DNA of 24,750 nucleotides from a virus: IMG/VR virus record IMGVR_UViG_3300037420_000928, positions 1 to 24,750 of that record; one strand, 5' to 3'. Below the pieces are notes generated by a model. That model did no database searches. It saw only the letters and a program-made list of their open reading frames with translations, and was not told the DNA's origin. Below are positions 13,268 to 24,750 of this stretch, one piece after another. Every line of letters begins with the position of its first letter. Position 1 is the first letter of the stretch. Both the position numbers and the translations under genes were made by a program.

Positions 13268-13747
13268 ATGAAGCTGTTTATTAAGAAGGCGGCTCCCACC
13301 CCCGCCCCACCGCCGACGCCAGCGCCTAAACCCACCATCCGGGGGTTGATATTCAAAAAACCGGTGCAGCAACCCATAAAAGCGGTTGCATCTGAAATAA
13401 CAAATGCTAAAAATGGGAACCTTGACGAGCTTGCCGCGTTTGATATTGGTAACTCTAGGAACTGCCTAGTGCCGTGGTATCTGATGGCCAGCTATCTGTA
13501 TTACGTGCGGGATGTTTCACTACTTTCAGACGGGTACTACGATCGTATCTGTCATGAGCTTAACGATAACTTTAAGCAGATTAAGCACTGGCATAAGCAT
13601 CTGGTGGACCAGAAGCAACTAGACGCCGGGACCGGCTTTAGACTTCGGTTTGACCAGTTTCCGTCCAGGATAATCAGCGCTGCTAACACGTTGGCACATG
13701 AGGTCCTGGGCGTCCCGTATCCGGGACAACCAAAGGAGAAGGAGTGA
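13268..13747 (+). CDS. stand-alone NAD-dependent DNA ligase subdomain Ia-like protein
   Basis: SYLYYVRDVSLLSDGYYDRICHEL matches the LigA Ia pattern YYxxDxPxxSDxEYD. There is no KxDG adenylation motif. Confidence 0.65.
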   Translation: MKLFIKKAAPTPAPPPTPAPKPTIRGLIFKKPVQQPIKAVASEITNAKNGNLDELAAFDIGNSRNCLVPWYLMASYLYYVRDVSLLSDGYYDRICHELNDNFKQIKHWHKHLVDQKQLDAGTGFRLRFDQFPSRIISAANTLAHEVLGVPYPGQPKEKE

Positions 13748-13857
13748 TGCCTCGCTCGCATAACTCTGCAGCCAAGAGTGTTCTCACCGCCGTGGAGGCT
13801 CTTGGAATAGGCCTGATCGTGTTGATCCTGATATTTCAATTCAGGCTGCTTATCTAA
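13747..13857 (+). CDS. 36-aa single-TM peptide (not in the ORF track)
   Basis: TGATG overlap after AAGGAG; ALGIGLIVLILIFQFRLLI hydrophobic stretch. Confidence 0.45.
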   Translation: MPRSHNSAAKSVLTAVEALGIGLIVLILIFQFRLLI

Positions 13858-13904
13858 CTTTTAAATTGTATCCAGGGTCAACATTCGATAAACTAACCCC
13901 TGAC

Positions 13905-14522
13905 ATGAAAACCACGGAGGGTTTCTTGACAGGGGTTATTGCTATCGACAATCCACAGTTCCTGACCTTGATCTGCGATGCTTCCTTTCAGGAGGAAACC
14001 GGTGCGGCGGGGTGGGGAGCCTGGGCTAAAATATCCACATGGCCGAGGGGTTATTTCTTCGGAGGCCCATTCCAATCTCAGATGCCGACCGTCCAGATGG
14101 CAGAACTCTGCGGGCTCGCCAATGCCGCCTACATCCTCAGCAAGGAAGGGCGACTGGAGGGGGTGACCCGGATCATGATGCAGTGCGACAACATGCATGC
14201 GCTGCAGATGGTCAAGTATTTCGTCAAGGGGACGATCACAGCCAGCGCCCGGGATGCCAACGTCCATAACCTGAAACCGAGGACGGCGCGGCTGGCCTAT
14301 ACCGGACTGGCGGTGACGGCCCTGGACAAGATCAACCACATTGCCGAGAAGCATGGGCTGGTATTCAGCCTTCGGCATGTGAAGGGCCATCATCGCAGCA
14401 AGCAAGGACCTTACTGGGTCAACGAGCAGTGCGACCATATCGCGGCGGAGGCTTTGGCTCAGCACCCGCATTACGTGGAAACAGCAGCCAGAGCCAAGAA
14501 ACTGAGAAGGATTAGACGATGA
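13905..14522 (+). CDS. ribonuclease HI-like protein
   Basis: ICDASF..GWG, AELCGL, QCDN, RHVKGH and NEQCDHIA give the DEDD residues plus His. Start is uncertain (13866-13926). Confidence 0.85.
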   Translation: MKTTEGFLTGVIAIDNPQFLTLICDASFQEETGAAGWGAWAKISTWPRGYFFGGPFQSQMPTVQMAELCGLANAAYILSKEGRLEGVTRIMMQCDNMHALQMVKYFVKGTITASARDANVHNLKPRTARLAYTGLAVTALDKINHIAEKHGLVFSLRHVKGHHRSKQGPYWVNEQCDHIAAEALAQHPHYVETAARAKKLRRIRR

Positions 14523-14866
14523 GCGAGCTACGGGGCAAAGCCCTAGCCGACCTGCTGAACGACGTGCCGGCTATGGTGGAAAACTATGTGCCGGCCGAAA
14601 ACCGGGAAAAGGTTGGCAAAGCCGCAGGACTGATGGTGACGAGTGTGCAGGCGGCTGTAATCGCCGGTAATCTCTCGGATCAAGACGTGTTGCACGGCTG
14701 CATGACGATTATCGCGGCGGCGATCGTCCTTCCCGGAAAGGGAATGATCCCCAAGGACTTGGAGGAGCAGGTTACCCACTGGACTAGCGAATATGCGGAG
14801 TGTTTCGCAGACGCGGTCAACAAGGGCAAGATGCAGACACACAACGGCAATAACGCTGTCAATTAA
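14519..14866 (+). CDS. hypothetical protein
   Basis: ATGA overlap. Confidence 0.7.
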   Translation: MSELRGKALADLLNDVPAMVENYVPAENREKVGKAAGLMVTSVQAAVIAGNLSDQDVLHGCMTIIAAAIVLPGKGMIPKDLEEQVTHWTSEYAECFADAVNKGKMQTHNGNNAVN

Positions 14867-14975
14867 AAGTTTGCTCACAAGGCAAATGATGGATTGACTT
14901 TTGCACCGCATTCGAGGATTTATCTGAACGTTATCGGATGCGGTGCAATTTATTGCATAAGACACGGAAGTCGGA

Positions 14976-15437
14976 ATGCACGGGCACAAGGTACTTCATA
15001 CAGGTAATATCGTGACCAGCGAAGCAAAGGAATTCTTCGCGGAGGCAGTTTCGAAGGGGTTGGTGGCGGCTGAAGACAGGCAGTTCCTGGTTGACGTAGG
15101 AGCCACGACTACCGCGTTTTATGCGATAACGGCGAAAGGCGAGGTGGTGGGAATTCTGGCCTACCGCCTGCAGGAACAAACGGCAAAGGTCACAGTGATC
15201 TATGTCGAGGAAACGTCGAGGCGCCTCGGCATTTCCGATTTACTGTTTGACACCCTGAAGGGTTATTTGCGACGCTATGGAGTGGCGGAACTCCTGATCG
15301 ACGTGCCCAACACGGAAGAGACGGTCCTGGCTGATTTGATCGAGAAAAAGCACAACGGGTTTATAGCCTCATACCGGTACATCATGGACTTGAGTGATGG
15401 GGTTAACGATGACGAGCTTCTGGGGCAATCTGGCTAA
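14976..15437 (+). CDS. GNAT-family acetyltransferase
   Basis: GEVVGILAY...IYVEETSRRLGISDLLF acetyl-CoA-binding motif A. Confidence 0.75.
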   Translation: MHGHKVLHTGNIVTSEAKEFFAEAVSKGLVAAEDRQFLVDVGATTTAFYAITAKGEVVGILAYRLQEQTAKVTVIYVEETSRRLGISDLLFDTLKGYLRRYGVAELLIDVPNTEETVLADLIEKKHNGFIASYRYIMDLSDGVNDDELLGQSG

Positions 15438-15702
15438 AGGTCTGCGGGAGAGCCAAAAAATCTCTCAGCGCAGGCTGGCGTCCAAGGCGGGAATAAATCG
15501 GGCGACGTTGCGCAAACTGGAGCGCGGGGAACCCGGAGTGGCGATCGAGGTGGTGGAGATCGTTTTCAACATGCTGGGTTACGAGCTAGATGCGATCGTA
15601 GCCGAGAACAGACCACAAGTGATCAGCCGGCACAATGCCATTTTCGATGATCCCGACAGCCGGTCTAAACTGGCGATGGATCGTCTGCTGAATATTCGCT
15701 GA
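15409..15702 (+). CDS. XRE-family HTH regulator (HipB-like)
   Basis: LRESQKISQRRLASKAGINRATLRKLERGEP...LGYEL. Start is 15394-15409. Confidence 0.8.
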   Translation: MTSFWGNLAKGLRESQKISQRRLASKAGINRATLRKLERGEPGVAIEVVEIVFNMLGYELDAIVAENRPQVISRHNAIFDDPDSRSKLAMDRLLNIR

Positions 15703-15782: not shown

Positions 15783-16118
15783 ATGATCAAGATCGTCTCA
15801 TTTTCCTACAAGAACAAACCCCAATTCGACCCCAAGACCACGTTGGAGATCGATTGCCGTTCGATGGCCAATCCTCATCACGTCGACATCCTCCAGCCCC
15901 TGGACGGGCGGGATTTGGCGGTGCAGGAATGGCTTCGTGAGCGCGAGGACATCGACCGCAAGATCAGAAATGCACGTCAAGCCTTGACCATGGGGTTTAC
16001 CACGGTAGCCTATGGATGCTACGGCGGGAAGCACCGAAGCGTGGCAATGGCTGAGATGCTGAGCCGGGAACTCACAGGCCTGGGCATCGAAACTGCAGTG
16101 GAGCACACAGCCCTATGA
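15783..16118 (+). CDS. stand-alone RapZ (YhbJ/YvcJ) C-terminal domain protein
   Basis: IVSFSYK, IDCRSMANPH, LDGRD.AVQEW and AYGCYGGKHRSVAMAEML match RapZ SFGFK, DVRFLPNP and GCTGGKHRSV. Confidence 0.85.
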   Translation: MIKIVSFSYKNKPQFDPKTTLEIDCRSMANPHHVDILQPLDGRDLAVQEWLREREDIDRKIRNARQALTMGFTTVAYGCYGGKHRSVAMAEMLSRELTGLGIETAVEHTAL

Positions 16119-19631: not shown

Positions 19632-21091
19632 CAAAGTTCCTGCTCGATCCCGTCTACACGGCGAGGCCGTCCCGCTGTTCGACGGCCTTCCTATTCATGC
19701 AATTGATCGAAGAGATCAGCGCGGTTGACGACCGCGCTTTTTTCTACATGCTCTACCCCACGCAAGCCAAGGATAACGAGGAGGACTGGACATGGCTGAA
19801 CAGGTTCCCGGAGCGGGTGACACTGATCCCGTATCCGTATGTTACCGGCGACCGGGTGGAAGAACTATTCAAGCTAACGGACCCGCTGCTCGATATGCTG
19901 TCCCCGGGGTACTCCCCATATTGGGATTACGATTTCTTGCTTACTTCACGTATCGGCCAGATACCGAACATGCGGGCGCACCTGCACCGAGAGGTGCCGT
20001 TCTACGAAGGAACCTACAAGGGGATCATCGGCCTGGACGAAATGCCGATGTTCAGCTTCCGGGACACGGTGAGTTGGGCGATCGAGGGCAACATGGATAT
20101 CGTCAGCCTAGCGGCGTATATGTCATCGTTGGGCGTCGTTATGAACAATCTCTGGTCCTGGCCATTCTTGAACAATATCGCGAGACGCTATCTGACGCCC
20201 TCGCAGGTGATCAGGTTGAAATTCAAAGTGCGGGAAGCTACTCCCGTGAAGCTGAGCCGCCTGAAGTCCCAACCGAAGCCTATCAAAGACACGTTGAATG
20301 TGCTGTTTGCCGGCCGGACCACGAGCGTGAGAAACTTCAAAGACGTGGCCGAGCTTTTCAGGAAGCAATTCGCGGGGTCGGCCCTGTCCAAAAAGGGCGT
20401 CAAGCTCCGTTTCATCGTTTCCACCCACTCCCTCGGCACCGCTGAGAGCCAGGACTTCGACTTTGTAGAGGTGCAGCACAACAATCGTGAGCAGTTCCAC
20501 GCGCTGCTGGAGAACGAAGCGCACGTCGCCATCAACATTTCGCGGGTCGAGGACTTCTCCATGTCGACCTACGAGCCGATGATGCACGGCGTCCCCGTTA
20601 TCCTCCCCGATAAGGCCTGGGCGTCATTCGTCGGGGACGACTACCCATATATCACCAATTCCATGGTCGACAGCTATGCGATCATCAAGAGTTTCCAGGA
20701 GGACTACGAAGGTGCGTTTAAGCGATGGGCTGACTGGGAAGCGTCGTATTGGGCGGAGTTCGTTGGCGGGCCACGGAATGTCTCCACGACAGAAGCCGTC
20801 CTTGCCCTTATGTCTGAGCATAAGACGAGACTTCTGGCGTGGACGCACGGGGCAAGCCGGCAAGCTGATATGCGCGACAAGGCGAAAGCGTTGACCGAAG
20901 CGTGTCTGGAAGATGGCGTGAAAAAGATCGATGCGTTGAAAATGTGGCAGGAGTATTTCGACATGTTCCAGAGCCCCGAGAAATGGCGGGGGACGCCGAT
21001 TGGCACCCGGCCGATCATCTACCTGATGAAGTGGCACATGAACCAATGCGGCTGGAAAGATACTTTGGAGCCGGGCGTTTTTACCCGTTGA
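19628..21091 (+). CDS. GT-B fold (GT4-like) glycosyltransferase
   Basis: NVLFAGR...RNF and SRVEDFSMSTYEPMMHGVPVILP (EX7E motif). ATGA overlap gives start 19628. Confidence 0.8.
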   Translation: MTKFLLDPVYTARPSRCSTAFLFMQLIEEISAVDDRAFFYMLYPTQAKDNEEDWTWLNRFPERVTLIPYPYVTGDRVEELFKLTDPLLDMLSPGYSPYWDYDFLLTSRIGQIPNMRAHLHREVPFYEGTYKGIIGLDEMPMFSFRDTVSWAIEGNMDIVSLAAYMSSLGVVMNNLWSWPFLNNIARRYLTPSQVIRLKFKVREATPVKLSRLKSQPKPIKDTLNVLFAGRTTSVRNFKDVAELFRKQFAGSALSKKGVKLRFIVSTHSLGTAESQDFDFVEVQHNNREQFHALLENEAHVAINISRVEDFSMSTYEPMMHGVPVILPDKAWASFVGDDYPYITNSMVDSYAIIKSFQEDYEGAFKRWADWEASYWAEFVGGPRNVSTTEAVLALMSEHKTRLLAWTHGASRQADMRDKAKALTEACLEDGVKKIDALKMWQEYFDMFQSPEKWRGTPIGTRPIIYLMKWHMNQCGWKDTLEPGVFTR

Positions 21092-21116
21092 CAACGATTT
21101 GCTCCCAGCCTATACC
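21088..21116 (+). promoter_or_regulatory. strong sigma70-type promoter for the RNA genes
   Basis: TTGACA-N17-TATACC, close to the rhizobial CTTGAC-N17-CTATAT consensus. Predicted start ~21123, at the base of the RNA closing stem. Confidence 0.75.
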
Positions 21117-21123
21117 CGAAAAC

Positions 21124-21314
21124 GGAACATCGGACTGGACGGCTGTTAAACCGGGCTGAACGGATGGGAGATAGCTGCGCAGGATCACGGTCCTAATCTA
21201 CCCTCCTCCACGGCCAGAAATACGTGTTCGGCTCCACCCTCTAGGCTGCAAACCAATCGAGTGGATCAAGCTGTTCGCAAGTATGGTAATCGTGGGTTTC
21301 CGGTTCGATGTTCC
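21124..21314 (+). ncRNA. unidentified structured ncRNA (~190 nt)
   Basis: 16-bp terminal stem GGAACATCGGACTGGA / TCCGGTTCGATGTTCC (2 G-U pairs) plus internal helices. It lies between the promoter and the tRNA, with no credible ORF. Confidence 0.7.
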
Positions 21315-21320
21315 ACCCTT

Positions 21321-21396
21321 GGGGTGTTAGCCCAGTTGGGAGAGCAGTGGCCCTGCAAGCCGAAGGTCCTCGGTTCGAACCCGAGACACTCCACCA
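21321..21396 (+). tRNA. tRNA-Ala (anticodon TGC)
   Basis: 76-nt cloverleaf: acceptor GGGGTGT/ACACTCC with G3:U70 and A73, T-arm CTCGG-TTCGAAC-CCGAG, encoded CCA. Confidence 0.92.
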
Positions 21397-21463
21397 AATT
21401 CTCTGCCATATCTGAGGGCTCCATGGCGGAGATAGTCTCGCGGTCCTCCCAACGCTGAGCATG

Positions 21464-21504
21464 AAAAAGGCTTACCCAGGGGTTTCAGGGGGTGGGCCTT
21501 TTTT
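21464..21504 (+). terminator. rho-independent terminator (possibly bidirectional)
   Basis: AAAAAGGCTTACCC...GGGTGGGCCTTTTTT. Confidence 0.75.
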
Positions 21505-21572
21505 ATGACCAGTGCCCACTAAAGCGCTTTCCCTATTTTCCAGGCTGTTTTATGTCTCCAGCGACATGATCA

Positions 21573-22466
21573 ATGGGGGCGTTTGTGAACGCGATAACCA
21601 AAACTAAGGCGTTGCCTCGGCTGGACGTGCGGGCCGACCAGCTAGTCAAGAACGAAAAGAACCCGAACAAGATGAACGCCAAGCAGTTCGATCTGCTATG
21701 CGACAATCTCGAAAAGACGGGGATGACGGACGCGCTGCTGGTTCGCCCCCTGCCGGACGAGACCAAGGACGGCCTGCCCAAATACCGCATCGTCGGCGGT
21801 CACCACCGCTATGACGCTGGCCTATATCTGGGGTTCAAGGAATTCCCGGTGACGGTGATCAACCACGACGATTTCGATGAAGACGCCGAAACCTTCCAGA
21901 TCGTCAGAATGAACATGATCCGTGGTCAGATGGACCCGGCCGCCTTCTTCCAGATGTACGAGAAGGTCCAGGCCAAGTACGGCAACGACATCCTGCAGGA
22001 CGCCTTCGGTTTCTCTGATGAGAAGGAATTCGAGCGGATGGTGGGGCAAGCTGCCAAGAGCCTGCCCACCCCGCTGATGAAGGAGAAGTTCAAGGAAGCG
22101 GCCAAAGAGATCAAGACGGTCGATGGGCTGTCCAAGCTGCTGAACCACATCTTCAACAAGTATGGTGACACGCTGCCCCACGGCTTCATGGTGTTCGACT
22201 ATGCCTCCCAGAAGCAGGTCTGGCTGCACATCTCGCACAAGACCTACAAGGCCATGGATATCATCGGGGATATGTGTATCGAGCAGGATCGGACCGTTGA
22301 TGAGGTCATCGGCGCCGTATTGCAACAAATTGCACAAGGCAAGACCCCGACCATGGACACGGTGGTAGCGTCTACCGAGCCGGCCAACCTGCCCAAGAAG
22401 ACCCTGCTGAAACTGAAGCTGAAGCCGACCAAGCAGACGCTCTCTGACATGAAGGCGGTGCACTGA
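21573..22466 (+). CDS. ParB/Srx N-terminal domain protein
   Basis: NEKNPNKM...LEKTGMTDALLVRP...YRIVGGHHRYDA ParB signature. Confidence 0.85.
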   Translation: MGAFVNAITKTKALPRLDVRADQLVKNEKNPNKMNAKQFDLLCDNLEKTGMTDALLVRPLPDETKDGLPKYRIVGGHHRYDAGLYLGFKEFPVTVINHDDFDEDAETFQIVRMNMIRGQMDPAAFFQMYEKVQAKYGNDILQDAFGFSDEKEFERMVGQAAKSLPTPLMKEKFKEAAKEIKTVDGLSKLLNHIFNKYGDTLPHGFMVFDYASQKQVWLHISHKTYKAMDIIGDMCIEQDRTVDEVIGAVLQQIAQGKTPTMDTVVASTEPANLPKKTLLKLKLKPTKQTLSDMKAVH

Positions 22467-23065
22467 TGGCCAGAACCCAACGCTTTGCCGAACTGCGTAA
22501 CCTGCGGCCGGAGGTGCAACAGGAGATCGATGACCGGTTGACGGCGGGGATCAACGCCCGCGAGATCGTCAAGTACCTGCAGGATGACTGCAAGGTCCTG
22601 ACCGACAAGAACCCCGACAGCCTCAAGAAGATGCTGGAGCGTTACCGCACGTCCGATCTGGCCGAGAAGAACCGTGCCCGCGTGCTGAACGCGACCAAGG
22701 GGATGTCGGTCTCCAAACTGGCCAAGACCCTGAACGCCATGCATGAGATCAACGAGCTTTGCGTGATCCAGCGGGCGCGGGTCGACAAGATGCTGACGAT
22801 GGAGCAGAAGCAGGACAACTTCGTGCTCAAGCAGACCTCCGAAGAAATCAAGCTGCTGAAGGAAAACCTCGTAGAGCTTGGGAAATTGCAGTTGGAAACC
22901 GGAGTGCTGAAGCGGGCCTCCAGGACCGTTACGGGAACAGTGGTGGACGCCGATGGGAATACTACGGATTTCGAGTGGGATGAAGAAACCAAGTCCCTTT
23001 ACGACCGGCTTGACAATCTTGAAAAAGGCCTCGTCATCGACGCCACCGCCTTGCCAGGAAACTAA
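22466..23065 (+). CDS. terS: probable terminase small subunit
   Basis: Immediately upstream of the large terminase; helical N-terminal HTH-like region and coiled coil. Assignment is mainly positional. Confidence 0.6.
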   Translation: MARTQRFAELRNLRPEVQQEIDDRLTAGINAREIVKYLQDDCKVLTDKNPDSLKKMLERYRTSDLAEKNRARVLNATKGMSVSKLAKTLNAMHEINELCVIQRARVDKMLTMEQKQDNFVLKQTSEEIKLLKENLVELGKLQLETGVLKRASRTVTGTVVDADGNTTDFEWDEETKSLYDRLDNLEKGLVIDATALPGN

Positions 23066-24750
23066 GGTCTATTCGGTAGAGGACGTCATCCAGACCAGCT
23101 TTGCCCTGTTGCGGCGGATGGGGCAGACCGGCAAGGACATCTGGGCTTTCTCCAAGACGATCACCGATCCGACGGCGCAAGCCACGTACCTGTTGAAGGC
23201 GACCCGCTGGCTGAAGAAACAATCCGAGCGCAAGGTAAAATGGCGCTGGCTGCCGGTCGACCCCTACACCTTTGTGAACTCGCCCAAGTACCTGAACATG
23301 GGTGCCGAAATCTGGCCCAAGAACATGGTCGAGATCGAGCGCCTGCTGTGGGGGGATTACGAAGAGGCGGTGTTCACCGGGGGTATCGGCACCGGCAAGA
23401 CCACCTGTGCCCTGGTCGCCATAGCTGAGACGATCTACGAGCTATCCTGCATGGTGCAGCCACAGCACGCCTTCGACATGGCGGCGTCGTCGGAAATCAT
23501 GTTCATCTTCCAATCGATGAAGAAGGAGTTGTCGAAGACCGTCGACTATAACCGCTTCAAGTCGATGCTCAACAACAGCGCCTATTTCACGGCCAACTTC
23601 CAGTTCGACCGACAGATTTCATCCGAGCTTCGCTTCCCGCACAACATCATCGTCAAGCCGCTGGCCGGCGATGCGACGGCAGCAATTGGGCAGAACGTCT
23701 TCGGCGGTCTGATTGACGAAGTGAACTTCATGGCGGTCACCGAGAACTCCAAACAGGCTTCGGCCGAGGGTGGTGTCTTCGATCAGGCCCGAGCGATCTA
23801 CACCTCGATTGCCCGGCGCCGGGAAAGCCGCTTCATGGAAAAGGGCAAGCTGCCCGGCCTGCTGTGCCTCGTGTCGTCAAAGCGCTACCCCGGCGAGTTC
23901 ACCGACACCAAGATGGCGCAGGCCGAGAAGGAATTGAAAGAAACCGGCCGCACCAGCATTTTCATCTATGACAAGCGGTCGTGGGACGTGAAGGACCTAG
24001 ACAAGTTCTCTGGACAGTGGTTCGACTTGTTCCTTGGGGACGCCAACCGCAAGCCACGGGTGCTCAAGGATGGAGAGGCCGACACGTTTGCGGATGCTGA
24101 CAAGAAGCTGATCACCAAGATACCGCTGGAGTACCGGCAGAAGTTCGAAGACAACATCCTCGACGCGGTGCGGGATATCGCCGGTCACTCGACCCTGGCG
24201 CTGAACCCGTTCATCATGAACGTCGAAGCGGTGGCCAATTGCTTCGGCACCGTGCCGTCGATCATCTCGCGGGAGTGGTGCGATTTCGACCAGACCGGTC
24301 TACTGATCTACCCAGATCGCATAGTAAACCGCACAGCCTTGCGCTGGATACATATCGACCCGTCGGAGACCAAGGACAGCACCGGAGTGGCCTGTGCCCA
24401 CGTCGTCAGGTTCGTGCCGATCCAGCGCGGTGACGAAGTCGAGATGCTGCCTCTGATCCGGTTCGATTTCACCCTCGAATACCGGCCCCCGGCTGGCGGG
24501 GAGATCGAGCTATCGAATGTGCGCCGACTGATCTACAAGCTCAACGAAGTAGGTCTTCCGATCAAGTTCGTCACTCTCGATAGCCATCAATCCAAGGACA
24601 GCCTGCAGACCCTGCACAAGAAGGGCTACAAGTCGGGGTATCAGTCGGTGGACCTGGACATCACCCCGTATGAAGTGGCGAAGCTGGCGTTTTATGACGG
24701 CCGGGTCTTGACCCCGGAGCACGACCATGCCAAACATGAATGGTCCCGCC
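22980..24750 (+). CDS. terL: terminase large subunit (partial, runs off the window; not in the ORF track)
   Basis: Long open frame with Walker A FTGGIGTGKTT, Walker B GGLIDEVNF and nuclease motifs IHIDPSETKD and TLDSHQS. Start is uncertain (22953, 22980, 23019 or 23118). Confidence 0.88.
   Translation, partial: MKKPSPFTTGLTILKKASSSTPPPCQETKVYSVEDVIQTSFALLRRMGQTGKDIWAFSKTITDPTAQATYLLKATRWLKKQSERKVKWRWLPVDPYTFVNSPKYLNMGAEIWPKNMVEIERLLWGDYEEAVFTGGIGTGKTTCALVAIAETIYELSCMVQPQHAFDMAASSEIMFIFQSMKKELSKTVDYNRFKSMLNNSAYFTANFQFDRQISSELRFPHNIIVKPLAGDATAAIGQNVFGGLIDEVNFMAVTENSKQASAEGGVFDQARAIYTSIARRRESRFMEKGKLPGLLCLVSSKRYPGEFTDTKMAQAEKELKETGRTSIFIYDKRSWDVKDLDKFSGQWFDLFLGDANRKPRVLKDGEADTFADADKKLITKIPLEYRQKFEDNILDAVRDIAGHSTLALNPFIMNVEAVANCFGTVPSIISREWCDFDQTGLLIYPDRIVNRTALRWIHIDPSETKDSTGVACAHVVRFVPIQRGDEVEMLPLIRFDFTLEYRPPAGGEIELSNVRRLIYKLNEVGLPIKFVTLDSHQSKDSLQTLHKKGYKSGYQSVDLDITPYEVAKLAFYDGRVLTPEHDHAKHEWSR

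What the first reader, a model, noticed from the sequence alone, without database searches (positions are those of the whole stretch)
21088..21320. Unidentified ~190-nt structured RNA with its own promoter, co-transcribed with a tRNA just before the packaging genes
Seen: TTGACA-N17-TATACC places the start at the base of a 16-bp stem pairing 21124-21139 with 21299-21314. Internal helices include GGGCTGAAC/GTTCGGCTC (21153-61/21226-34), GGATGGGAGAT/ATCTACCCTCC (21162-72/21196-206) capped by AGGAT/GTCCT, CACG/CGTG, TCCAC/GTGGA and ACGGCT/AGCTGT. Frequent G-U pairs suggest selection on RNA rather than DNA. The tRNA starts 6 nt downstream, so RNase P cleavage of the tRNA could release this RNA. I cannot match it to tRNA, tmRNA, SRP or canonical RNase P. 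Inference: a new phage ncRNA (6S-like or decoy RNA, protein sponge, ribozyme, or packaging-associated RNA).
Basis: partly seen in the sequence, partly recalled or inferred. Interest (0 to 1): 0.8.

Follow-up and report, generated by a model that had tools for sequence, protein, structure and literature searches.

The report
New self-pairing structured phage RNA
Between a sugar-transfer gene and the DNA-packaging genes of this ~100-kb soil phage lies a real, apparently separately transcribed gene for a folded ~190-base RNA of no catalogued family; three related Rhizobium phages keep its shape but not its sequence, and all carry a self-complementary loop which suggests that two copies pair up, but its job is unknown.

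Summary
Window 21124-21314 (+) folds into a four-way junction. It has a 16-bp terminal stem (P1), a small hairpin (P2), a P3-P4 arm and a variable P5 arm.

A covariance model built from the window sequence alone finds the same architecture at the same locus (glycosyltransferase gene | RNA | parB) in Rhizobium phages RHph_Y1_11 and RHph_TM16 and in one IMG/VR phage. In the 4-sequence alignment, 95.7% of pair cells are canonical and 24 of 42 pairs show compensatory double changes. Flanking genes are more conserved in sequence than the RNA.

A TTGACA-N17-TATAnn promoter and an intrinsic terminator are kept in all four phages. The tRNA-Ala is present only in this phage.

Nothing matches in Rfam. 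The phage encodes no reverse transcriptase and no Ro protein, and the locus holds no conserved ORF.

New here: an 8-nt palindrome sits at identical alignment columns in all four RNAs. It reads CUGCGCAG, CCUGCAGG or CCGGCCGG, and it changes by compensation. This suggests RNA homodimerisation.

The function is unknown. My best guess is a shape-recognised, self-associating scaffold or decoy RNA. A stand-alone RapZ C-terminal (RNA-binding) domain protein lies 5 kb upstream in all four phages; this is an untested lead.

The scan has noted other orphan structured RNAs near terminase genes on other DNA, but not this family.

The parts
21088..21116 (+). Promoter: -35 TTGACA (21088-93), 17-nt spacer, -10 TATACC (21111-16). 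The -35 overlaps the TGA stop codon of the glycosyltransferase gene.
   Evidence: Read directly. All four phages keep the same hexamers and the same spacing, while the spacer sequence differs. In TM16 the -35 lies outside the coding sequence, so coding constraint does not explain its conservation. It is one of only 12 sites in the 99.7-kb genome that match the rhizobial consensus CTTGAC-N16-18-CTATAT at 10 or more of 12 positions (the consensus is from memory). The E. coli-type scan does not call it.
21124..21139 (+). P1, 5' strand of the 16-bp terminal stem. It begins about 7 nt after the -10, so roughly at the transcription start.
   Evidence: 12 of 16 pairs show compensatory double changes among the four phages.
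21299..21314 (+). P1, 3' strand.
21140..21158 (+). P2, a small hairpin (21140-44 pairs with 21154-58).
   Evidence: 5 pairs, 2 of them with double changes, 94% of cells paired. This is the weakest helix.
21162..21206 (+). P3-P4 arm. P3 pairs 21162-64 and 21166-72 with 21196-99 and 21201-06. P4 pairs 21181-85 with 21190-94. Between them is an asymmetric internal loop, 8 nt on the 5' side.
   Evidence: P3 has 10 pairs, 5 with double changes. P4 has 5 pairs, 2 with double changes.
21175..21182 (+). 8-nt palindrome CTGCGCAG, made of 6 internal-loop nucleotides plus the first 2 nt of P4. Candidate RNA-RNA homodimerisation site.
   Evidence: An 8-nt palindrome occupies the same alignment columns (64-71 of A9) in all four phages: CTGCGCAG, CCTGCAGG, and CCGGCCGG twice. 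All 16 cells are self-complementary and 3 of 4 pairs change by compensation. The sequence occurs only once in the 99.7-kb genome.
21207..21296 (+). P5 arm, a long imperfect hairpin of variable length: 90 nt here and 52-65 nt in relatives. Its base pairs 21207-12 with 21291-96.
   Evidence: for the P5 base (3 of 6 pairs with double changes). for the separate folds of the arm.
21321..21396 (+). tRNA-Ala(UGC) with encoded CCA, inserted between the RNA core and the 3' module. Present only in this phage.
   Evidence: ARAGORN. Rfam tRNA at 51.3 bits. Absent from L002, L016 and L017.
21397..21468 (+). 3' module: a hairpin at 21400-09/21423-32 containing GGCGG, then a single-stranded stretch (CCUCCCAACG... 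here; CGUACCAA in the three relatives).
   Evidence: Alignment A10 and folds.
21469..21504 (+). Intrinsic terminator: GGCTTACCC / GGGTGGGCC stem followed by T6, with an A-run before it.
   Evidence: Folds of all four phages end in a strong hairpin followed by U5-6. GGGCCTTTTT is invariant in A2 and A10. The tool's terminator scan misses it because the loop exceeds 8 nt.

Best explanation
This is a stand-alone, moron-like gene for a structured non-coding RNA.

Shown by comparison:
- Host sigma-70 RNA polymerase would start at about 21124 from a conserved TTGACA-N17-TATAnn promoter and stop at the intrinsic terminator at 21469-21504.
- The first ~190 nt fold into a four-way junction closed by a 16-bp stem that joins the 5' end to position 21314.

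Inferred:
- The core is cut free on its 3' side. In this phage RNase P would do this at the tRNA-Ala 6 nt downstream. In the relatives the cut would be at or near a hairpin that occupies the same place.
- Two copies of the RNA pair through the 8-nt palindrome in the P3/P4 internal loop to form a symmetric homodimer.
- The RNA works through its shape, as a scaffold or decoy for a protein partner or as an RNA-only assembly. Selection keeps helices and self-complementarity but almost no single-stranded sequence, which argues against antisense pairing or a small-molecule pocket.

The partner and the benefit to the phage are unknown.
For: - Structure. A model built from the window sequence alone (R1) finds the syntenic element in RHph_Y1_11 (52 bits, E 1.5e-12), RHph_TM16 (30 bits, E 2.5e-7) and IMGVR_UViG_3300046513_000134 (27 bits, E 1.5e-6), at exactly the coordinates I had defined by hand.
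- Covariation. 95.7% of pair cells are canonical, 24 of 42 pairs show double changes, no shuffle of 500 reaches this, and slid controls give 4 or fewer.
- Rate of change. The RNA core is 45-62% identical between lineages, whereas the flanking coding DNA is 66-89% identical.
- Transcription signals. Promoter and terminator are kept in all four phages.
- Coding. No ORF is conserved across the four.
- Copy number. R1 matches the element once in the own genome and once in Y1_11, with no second copy in any of the five genomes searched; with the filters used in that search it does not detect the TM16 and UViG copies.
- Palindrome. It sits at identical columns with compensatory changes, and the predicted 8-mer self-duplex is -13.5 to -17.3 kcal/mol.
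- Precedent. Palindromic pairing is an established interface of natural RNA homodimers such as HYER1/5 and ARRPOF (PMC12990946).
- Recent insertion. More distant relatives have only small ORFs at this position: Stenotrophomonas phage DLP_5, Rhodobacter phage RcZahn and the metagenome contigs with ParB at 60% identity or less that reach far enough upstream.
Against: - Only four sequences from three lineages are available, and the alignment was fitted to the model's structure.
- Folding energies are barely better than shuffles (z -1.9 and -1.4).
- No expression data are available.
- The -10 is weak by E. coli rules.
- In one homologue (UViG134) the palindrome is predicted to be paired within the monomer (unpaired probability about 0.02).
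- An 8-bp helix between two internal loops is topologically demanding, and it borrows 2 nt from P4.
- The palindrome could instead be a DNA site.
- CCTGCAGG occurs 13 times in the Y1_11 genome, so in that phage it is not unique.
- No partner protein has been identified.
Confidence: 0.5

Rival explanations
1. The RNA is the partner of the phage's stand-alone RapZ C-terminal-domain protein (window 15783-16118). A dimeric RNA-binding protein would bind a dimeric RNA, giving a GlmZ/RapZ-like ribonucleoprotein that affects RNase E or the amino-sugar supply for the adjacent sugar operon. This is compatible with the best explanation as to what the RNA is, and it adds a specific partner.
For: - The protein matches PF22740 (RapZ C-terminal domain) at E 3.3e-22, and E. 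coli RapZ residues 166-269 at E 1e-7.
- The ligand-pocket residues NPH and GGKHRS are kept.
- In E. coli the isolated C-terminal domain is a homodimer and is sufficient to bind RNA (PMC5737377).
- The protein is present in all four RNA-bearing phages and absent from DLP_5, which lacks the RNA.
Against: - The co-occurrence is just shared ancestry: four close relatives against one distant phage.
- There is no Rfam GlmY/GlmZ match even at E up to 10.
- The phage protein ends in an acidic or neutral tail (...ETAVEHTAL). From memory, E. coli RapZ has a basic C-terminal patch that is implicated in sRNA binding.
- In a sugar operon the domain may simply bind a sugar phosphate.
Confidence: 0.1
2. It is a cis-acting leader of the late (parB-terminase-structural) operon. 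The folded 5' RNA would modify the transcribing polymerase, as HK022 put RNA does, or the unit would work like the lambda pR'-6S-tR' arrangement, so that only polymerases starting at this promoter read through the terminator.
For: The order promoter, then structured RNA starting at +1, then strong terminator, then same-strand late genes fits this layout. The unit sits exactly at the boundary between the early/metabolic genes and the packaging genes.
Against: - Between 75 and 180 variable nucleotides separate the fold from the terminator, and here they include a whole tRNA. That excludes a riboswitch-type coupling between P1 and the terminator.
- The initial transcribed sequence is not conserved, so there is no Q-type pause element.
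- The palindrome is left unexplained.
- A separately conserved palindrome (ATGTC-N6-GACAT, 21552-21567) lies between the terminator and parB. It could be the late operon's own control site.
- More distant relatives express the same genes without this element.
Confidence: 0.1
3. The functional part is a trans-acting base-pairing sRNA, the 3' module with a single-stranded seed plus terminator. The 5' fold would be only a stabilising or processing element.
For: The 3' module has conserved motifs (GCGGCGG; CGUACCAA in three phages), a single-stranded A/U-rich stretch and a U-tailed terminator, which is a typical sRNA build. In the window a tRNA separates the two modules, so they can be cut apart.
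Against: - The putative seed is not kept in the window phage (CCUCCCAACG).
- The strongest selection signal (42 covarying pairs plus the palindrome) is in the 5' core, not in the 3' module.
- No target search was possible because no host genome was available.
Confidence: 0.1
4. It is a packaging-motor RNA comparable to phi29 pRNA.
For: It is a phage RNA of similar size with paired 5' and 3' ends, a multi-helix junction and a covarying intermolecular pairing site, and it lies next to the packaging genes. In the pRNA family, too, the kissing sequences differ from phage to phage (PMC4201828).
Against:
- These are ~100-kb siphovirus-type phages. Relatives annotate a large terminase plus an upstream small protein, and RcZahn packages a circularly permuted genome (PMC8601537).
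- Close relatives with the same packaging genes lack the RNA.
Confidence: 0.04
5. The signal is at DNA level. The inverted repeats and the palindrome would be a protein-binding site (a parS-like site for the adjacent ParB-like protein, a pac site or an operator), or a cruciform.
For: The palindrome lies about 400 bp upstream of a ParB-like gene and near the packaging genes. From general knowledge, ParB proteins bind palindromic sites.
Against: - The four phages show 17 G-U cells in the helices, and the model scores much higher on the + strand than on the - strand.
- Promoter and terminator frame the element.
- The palindrome's sequence differs among phages whose ParB is 74-80% identical. That would need repeated changes of protein specificity, whereas self-complementary RNA needs no second partner to change.
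- The site is unique in the genome.
Confidence: 0.05
6. It is a 6S-like decoy of RNA polymerase, a Y-RNA-like or tRNA-like RNA, a retron RNA, or another known class that the models missed.
For: The terminal stem formed by the 5' and 3' ends resembles 6S RNA, Y RNA and retron msr-msd in general outline.
Against: - No Rfam match was found even at E up to 10 in the window, or up to 5 in the three homologous loci.
- ARAGORN finds only the true tRNA.
- The phage genome holds no reverse transcriptase and no Ro/TROVE gene.
- The fold is a four-way junction, not a rod with a central bubble.
Confidence: 0.05

Closest known systems
Natural RNA homodimers held by palindromic base-pairing (HYER1/HYER5 group-IIC-derived ribozymes; ARRPOF RNA with its bulged complementary P10; from memory also the HIV-1 dimerisation initiation site)
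   Same: A self-complementary stretch in a loop or bulge of a folded RNA. In HYERs, the presence of the palindrome predicts dimers and its absence predicts monomers (PMC12990946). Here an 8-nt palindrome sits in an asymmetric internal loop and covaries.
   Different: There is no sequence or structure homology: no Rfam match, different size and different fold. Dimerisation here is inferred, not observed. No catalytic or replication role is known.
phi29-family prohead RNA (pRNA)
   Same: It is a phage-encoded RNA of about 120-174 nt with a 5'/3' paired helix, a central junction and intermolecular loop pairing. The pairing sequences differ between related phages while complementarity is kept (PMC4201828).
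   Different: pRNA uses two different loops to build rings on the portal of phi29-like podoviruses. This RNA has one palindrome, which would give dimers. It lies in ~100-kb phages whose relatives annotate terminase genes, and sister phages with the same packaging genes lack it.
Large 'ornate' RNAs of phages and bacteria (ROOL, GOLLD, OLE)
   Same: They are orphan structured RNAs, often in phages and next to tRNA genes (from memory). They form homo-oligomers through kissing loops (PMC12286853).
   Different: They are 3-4 times larger and widespread. This RNA is about 190 nt, is known in four phages, and gave no Rfam hit.
GlmZ/GlmY sRNAs and their adaptor RapZ
   Same: Similar size. The phage encodes a RapZ C-terminal domain, which is the RNA-binding part, in the same gene block, next to amino-sugar genes.
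   Different: There is no similarity to the GlmY/GlmZ models. The architecture differs: a four-way junction against three consecutive stem-loops. The phage protein lacks the N-terminal domain that RNase E-dependent cleavage needs in E. coli (PMC5737377).
Stable RNAs C and D (species 1 and 2) of the phage T4 tRNA cluster (from memory, not checked here)
   Same: They are phage-encoded stable RNAs of unknown function, co-transcribed with tRNAs and released by tRNA-processing enzymes. The window phage shows the same arrangement.
   Different: Here the link to a tRNA is specific to one phage. No homology was tested because I had no reference sequence.
Lambda pR'-6S RNA-tR' leader and HK022 put RNA (from memory)
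   Same: A promoter, a short non-coding transcript and a terminator lie directly in front of the late genes.
   Different: No pause or qut-like conserved sequence is present. The distance to the terminator is long and variable. Selection acts on a complex fold and a palindrome, which those systems do not have.

Membership tests
Any Rfam 15 family (4227 models, including 6S, Y RNA/YrlA, tmRNA, RNase P, SRP, GlmY/GlmZ, riboswitches, small ribozymes, ROOL/GOLLD, ar14) | Score at or above the family's gathering threshold | tested here: not met
   Only the tRNA passes. With permissive filters at E up to 10, the best match in the region is a snoRNA model at 18 bits against a threshold of 60. Nothing matches in the three homologous loci.
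tRNA / tmRNA | Cloverleaf, or a tRNA-like domain with a tag reading frame | tested here: not met
   ARAGORN calls only 21321-21396. The GGTTCGAT in the 3' strand of P1 is not a T-arm, since its flanks do not pair, and the relatives do not keep it.
Bacterial 6S RNA | Rod-like helix with a large central bubble that mimics an open promoter | tested here: not met
   The covariation-supported fold is a four-way junction. There is no Rfam 6S match.
Retron msr-msd RNA | An adjacent reverse transcriptase gene | tested here: not met
   PF00078 is absent from the whole 99.7-kb phage genome. The neighbouring genes encode a glycosyltransferase and a ParB-like protein.
Y RNA / YrlA | A Ro60/Rsr (TROVE) partner gene and a tRNA-like module | tested here: not met
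   PF05731 is absent from the phage genome. No Rfam match. The host genome was not available.
Riboswitch / attenuator | A sensor fold directly coupled to an expression platform, plus conserved junction nucleotides | tested here: not met
   Between 75 and 180 variable nucleotides (here a tRNA) lie between P1 and the terminator. Unpaired core positions are only 45-65% identical between lineages.
   Only one self-complementary site of 8 nt or more lies at conserved columns. I found no second conserved pair of complementary loops by eye.
phi29-type pRNA | Binding to the portal and the packaging ATPase; requirement for packaging | not testable with these tools
   This needs biochemistry or genetics.
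GlmZ/GlmY-type RapZ-bound sRNA | Homology to the GlmZ/GlmY models | tested here: not met
   No match at E up to 10.
GlmZ/GlmY-type RapZ-bound sRNA | Binding by a RapZ C-terminal domain | not testable with these tools
   A RapZ_C protein is encoded 5 kb upstream, but binding cannot be computed.
Palindrome-mediated RNA homodimers (functional class, not a homology family) | A self-complementary stretch at a conserved, exposed position, maintained by compensatory change | tested here: met
   8-nt palindromes lie at the same columns in all four phages, and 3 of 4 pairs change by compensation. Predicted exposure is good in three RNAs and poor in one.
Palindrome-mediated RNA homodimers (functional class, not a homology family) | Observed dimer formation | not testable with these tools
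   Nested-structure programs cannot represent pairing between two internal loops. This needs native gels, SEC-MALS or cryo-EM.

The most novel reading that the evidence does not exclude
The RNA forms a two-fold symmetric homodimer. The phage's stand-alone RapZ C-terminal domain, itself a homodimeric RNA-binding module, binds that dimer. The resulting viral ribonucleoprotein would hijack or blunt host RNase E or RapZ-type control, or would tie amino-sugar supply to the phage's own glycosylation operon. This would be a phage-borne, non-homologous counterpart of the GlmZ-RapZ system.
Probability: 0.08. Interest if true: 0.85.

Novelty: categorically new. Interest (0 to 1): 0.52.

Why it matters
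- It adds an RNA family, supported by comparative evidence, that no catalogue holds. It comes from phages of an agriculturally important host.
- Two of the four phages (RHph_Y1_11 and RHph_TM16) are cultured isolates, so the predictions can be tested at once.
- The covarying palindrome makes the RNA a candidate natural homodimer of under 200 nt. Which natural RNAs form quaternary structures, and why, is now studied by cryo-EM with few small natural examples.
- It offers a first concrete hypothesis for what a stand-alone RapZ RNA-binding domain does in a phage.
- If the function proves to be anti-defence or host takeover, it would be another case of phages using shape-based RNAs rather than proteins.

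Tried and rejected
**Searches for more members**
- blastn of the window, TM16 and Y1_11 elements against 50,697 phage records returned only tRNA-Ala hits or self hits.
- Exact patterns in IMG/VR gave one true relative; the other hits were chance matches.
- ParB and glycosyltransferase protein searches in IMG/VR, JGI metagenomes and GTDB genomes gave 32 + 3 + 2 loci.
  - Loci with ParB at 60% identity or less that reach far enough upstream have no intergenic gap.
  - They gave no nhmmer hit.
  - They gave no hit with model R1, even with filters off.
- R1 found nothing in 151 sampled alphaproteobacterial genomes. This is a weak negative, because it is a single-sequence model run with strict filters.

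The Logan contig of the 77%-identical ParB (P0003), a probable fifth member, could not be fetched.
- The RapZ_C protein found no IMG/VR loci and only 7 distant word-sharing relatives.

**Readings considered and rejected**
- Retron: the phage genome holds no RT gene.
- Y RNA: the phage genome holds no Ro gene.
- Small-protein gene: no ORF is conserved across the four phages.
- cos site: a relative packages a circularly permuted genome.
- An anti-Shine-Dalgarno 'CCUCCUCC' motif like those of alphaproteobacterial sRNAs: it is simply the paired 3' strand of P3, and it gave no Rfam hit.

**Unverified label**
- The 'terminase' labels for 22466-24749 rest on GenBank annotation of relatives. Pfam, PHROGs and PDB sequence searches found nothing.
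Full report
**What is there**

The window is the first 24.75 kb of a 99.7-kb IMG/VR phage genome that is 99% complete. All real genes around the finding run on the + strand.

- An amino-sugar block comes first: a RapZ_C-domain protein, an unknown protein, an SDR epimerase/dehydratase, a DegT aminotransferase and a GT4-type glycosyltransferase that ends at 21091.
- A 480-nt gene-free stretch follows.
- Then comes a ParB-like nuclease-domain gene, whose likely true start is GTG 21585.
- Two further genes follow, which GenBank annotates in relatives as a hypothetical protein and the large terminase. I could not confirm those labels.

- TTGACA at 21088-93, a 17-nt spacer and TATACC at 21111-16.
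- A perfect 16-bp stem, 21124-39 with 21299-314, of which 2 pairs are G-U.
- tRNA-Ala(UGC) at 21321-96.

**Is it more than chance?**

Folding energy alone says little. The z-score is -1.9. The decisive evidence is comparative.

The closest relatives, by ParB identity of 74-80%, are Rhizobium phages RHph_Y1_11 (MN988558) and RHph_TM16 (MN988459) and IMGVR_UViG_3300046513_000134. In all three, the gap between the glycosyltransferase gene and parB holds the same three things:
- The same promoter hexamers at the same spacing, with an unrelated spacer sequence.
- A 150-165-nt stretch closed by a 15-16-bp stem of quite different sequence.
- A terminator.

blastn cannot even detect these elements from one another.

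I built a covariance model from the window sequence alone, using five helices. It found:
- Y1_11 at 52 bits (E 1.5e-12).
- TM16 at 30 bits and the UViG at 27 bits with filters off (E 2.5e-7 and 1.5e-6).

These hits fall at exactly the coordinates I had marked by hand. The opposite strand scores much lower (4-9 bits).

On the resulting alignment A9:
- 95.7% of 162 pair cells are canonical, against 76% in shuffles and 35-54% in slid controls.
- 24 of 42 pairs carry changes on both sides, against 4 or fewer in slid controls.
- Every helix contributes.

Caveats: there are four sequences from three lineages, and the alignment was fitted to the model.

The flanking coding DNA is 66-89% identical between these phages, while the RNA core is only 45-62% identical between lineages. 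So shape is under selection, not sequence. No ORF is shared.

**Anatomy (window coordinates)**

- P1: 21124-39 with 21299-314.
- P2: 21140-44 with 21154-58.
- P3: 21162-64 and 21166-72 with 21196-99 and 21201-06.
- An asymmetric internal loop between P3 and P4.
- P4: 21181-85 with 21190-94.
- P5: base at 21207-12 with 21291-96. The arm is a long imperfect hairpin, 90 nt here and 52-65 nt in relatives.

P1 starts 7-9 nt after the -10 hexamer in all four phages, so the 5' end of the RNA lies at the base of the stem.

Two of them, GGGCTGAAC/GTTCGGCTC and ACGGCT/AGCTGT, are not conserved and clash with P2.

After P1 the relatives have a hairpin (TCTGCAGA...TCTGCAG). Then come a second hairpin with GCGGCGG, a single-stranded CGUACCAA stretch and the terminator.

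In the window phage a complete tRNA-Ala sits where the first hairpin lies in the relatives. The relatives have no tRNA there. The link to a tRNA is therefore an accident of this phage. RNase P would still give this copy a neat 3' end.

**The new observation**

Each of the four RNAs has exactly one palindrome of 8 nt or more in its core, and it lies at the same alignment columns. It covers six nucleotides of the P3/P4 internal loop plus the first two of P4. The sequences are:
- CUGCGCAG in the window (21175-82).
- CCUGCAGG in Y1_11.
- CCGGCCGG in TM16 and the UViG.

Counted as self-pairs, 16 of 16 cells pair and 3 of the 4 pairs differ by compensatory double changes. Slid controls give 25-69% paired cells, and 12 of 500 shuffles reach the observed values.

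Palindromes of 8 nt or more occur at 0.0027 per nt in this genome.

An 8-nt palindrome cannot fold on itself, so the simplest reading is pairing between two copies of the RNA. The predicted duplex is -13.5 to -17.3 kcal/mol.

Palindromic pairing is a documented interface of natural RNA homodimers. HYER1/5 dimerise through a palindrome and HYERs without one stay monomeric; ARRPOF uses a bulged complementary helix (PMC12990946).

Points against the dimer reading:
- In one homologue the site is predicted to be paired within the monomer.
- A loop-loop helix of 8 bp is sterically demanding.
- Only three lineages are available.

A DNA-level reading (operator, parS-like or pac site) is less likely:
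- The sequence changes between phages whose proteins are 74-80% identical.
- The site is unique in the genome.
- It is embedded in helices with 17 G-U cells.

**What it is not**

- No Rfam family matches, either in the window or in the homologues.
- It is not a tRNA or tmRNA.
- It is not a retron RNA, because the phage has no reverse transcriptase.
- It is not a Y RNA with a phage Ro protein.
- It is not a riboswitch: the distance to the terminator is long and variable, and the junction nucleotides are poorly conserved.
- It is not a cos site, since the related phage RcZahn packages a circularly permuted genome (PMC8601537).

The element is young and narrowly distributed. Phages with ParB at 60% identity or less have small ORFs or no gap at this position. 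These are Stenotrophomonas DLP_5, Rhodobacter RcZahn, and the metagenome and genome loci that reach upstream of parB. The model finds nothing in them. It also finds nothing in 151 sampled alphaproteobacterial genomes (a weak negative).

With its own promoter and terminator, inserted between two conserved genes, the element has the build of a moron.

**How it most likely works**

Shown: a conserved fold, conserved transcription signals, and a conserved self-complementary site.

Inferred: host sigma-70 polymerase makes a primary transcript of about 380 nt from early in infection. The promoter resembles the rhizobial CTTGAC-N17-CTATAT consensus, which I cite from memory, and it is one of 12 such sites in the genome. 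The 5' core is trimmed at the tRNA or hairpin, and two cores pair through the palindrome.

Selection preserves helices and self-complementarity but hardly any unpaired sequence. I therefore favour a shape-recognised role, either as scaffold or decoy for a protein or as an RNA-only assembly, over antisense regulation or ligand sensing. Confidence in this package is about 0.5. Confidence that it is a real structured RNA gene is about 0.9.

**Leads and rivals**

I confirmed the domain: PF22740 at E 3e-22, a match to E. coli RapZ, and the ligand pocket kept. In E. coli this domain alone is a dimer and binds RNA (PMC5737377).

The protein is present in all four RNA-bearing phages and absent from DLP_5. 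That is no more than shared ancestry, and the RNA has no likeness to GlmY/GlmZ. I keep it as the boldest open reading, at about 8-10%.

Other rivals:
- A put-like or lambda-6S-like leader of the late operon (about 10%).
- A base-pairing sRNA in the 3' module (about 10%).
- A DNA site (about 5%).
- A pRNA-like packaging RNA (about 4%).
- A missed known class (about 5%).

**Limits**

- The four-sequence model could not be calibrated.
- No host genome and no expression data were available.
- The scan's index holds several orphan structured RNAs near terminase genes in unrelated phages, but nothing that resembles this stretch.

Noticed in passing
window 15783-16118 (+): A 111-aa protein consisting only of a RapZ C-terminal domain (PF22740, E 3.3e-22). 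It keeps the NPH and GGKHRS pocket residues and lacks the N-terminal kinase-like domain. It heads the amino-sugar operon and is conserved in RHph_Y1_11, RHph_TM16 and the IMG/VR relative, but absent from Stenotrophomonas phage DLP_5.
   Followed up: partly
window 21550-21569 (+): A conserved palindrome (TT)ATGTC-N5-6-GACA(T) lies between the terminator and the parB ribosome-binding site in all four phages. Unlike the RNA palindrome, its sequence is conserved. It could be an operator, a late-promoter element or a 5'-UTR hairpin of the packaging operon.
   Followed up: partly
window 21573-21587: By comparison with the relatives (…GAACGCGAT…), the parB-like gene probably starts at GTG 21585, not at the ATG 21573 that begins the longest ORF.
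   Followed up: partly
same genome outside the window: G000:C1:~89350-89670 (+), locus L073:150-470: A second ORF-free stretch of about 320 nt has a long 5'/3' closing stem (GGTGACTGGC...GCCAGTCATCACC). A canonical tRNA T-arm (CCAGG-TTCGATC-CCTGA) sits just before the 3' strand, which gives it a tmRNA-like outline. It lies upstream of a 56-aa Lys-rich ORF and tRNA-Gln (89854-89929). ARAGORN and Rfam call nothing. There is no sequence-level match in the four phage genomes searched (Y1_11, TM16, the IMG/VR relative and the more distant DLP_5).
   Followed up: partly
window 21397-21468 (+); L016 2052-2140, L002 1037-1130, L017 2095-2230: The 3' module of the transcript carries motifs that are conserved in sequence: a GCGGCGG hairpin, and single-stranded CGUACCAA in three phages (CCUCCCAACG here). 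It could be a separate base-pairing sRNA.
   Followed up: partly
L016 record MN988558 (RHph_Y1_11), whole genome: CCTGCAGG, the palindrome of that phage's RNA, occurs 13 times in the 100-kb genome, against 3 for the reversed control word. The corresponding palindromes are rare in the other phages (1, 2 and 4 copies).
   Followed up: no
window 21140-21158 versus 21299-21306; L002 and L017 equivalents: The P2 loop region (AACCGG here, GUGGAA in TM16 and the UViG) is complementary to the inner part of the 3' strand of P1, so it resembles the inner 5' strand of P1. This may allow an alternative pairing or conformational switch. It is weak in Y1_11.
   Followed up: no
window 13268-15702 (+): Upstream of the sugar operon lie proteins with these matches: an NAD-ligase N-terminal Ia-like domain (13268-13747), RNase H (13866-14522), a GNAT acetyltransferase (14976-15437) and a Cro/C1-type HTH (15394-15702).
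   Followed up: no
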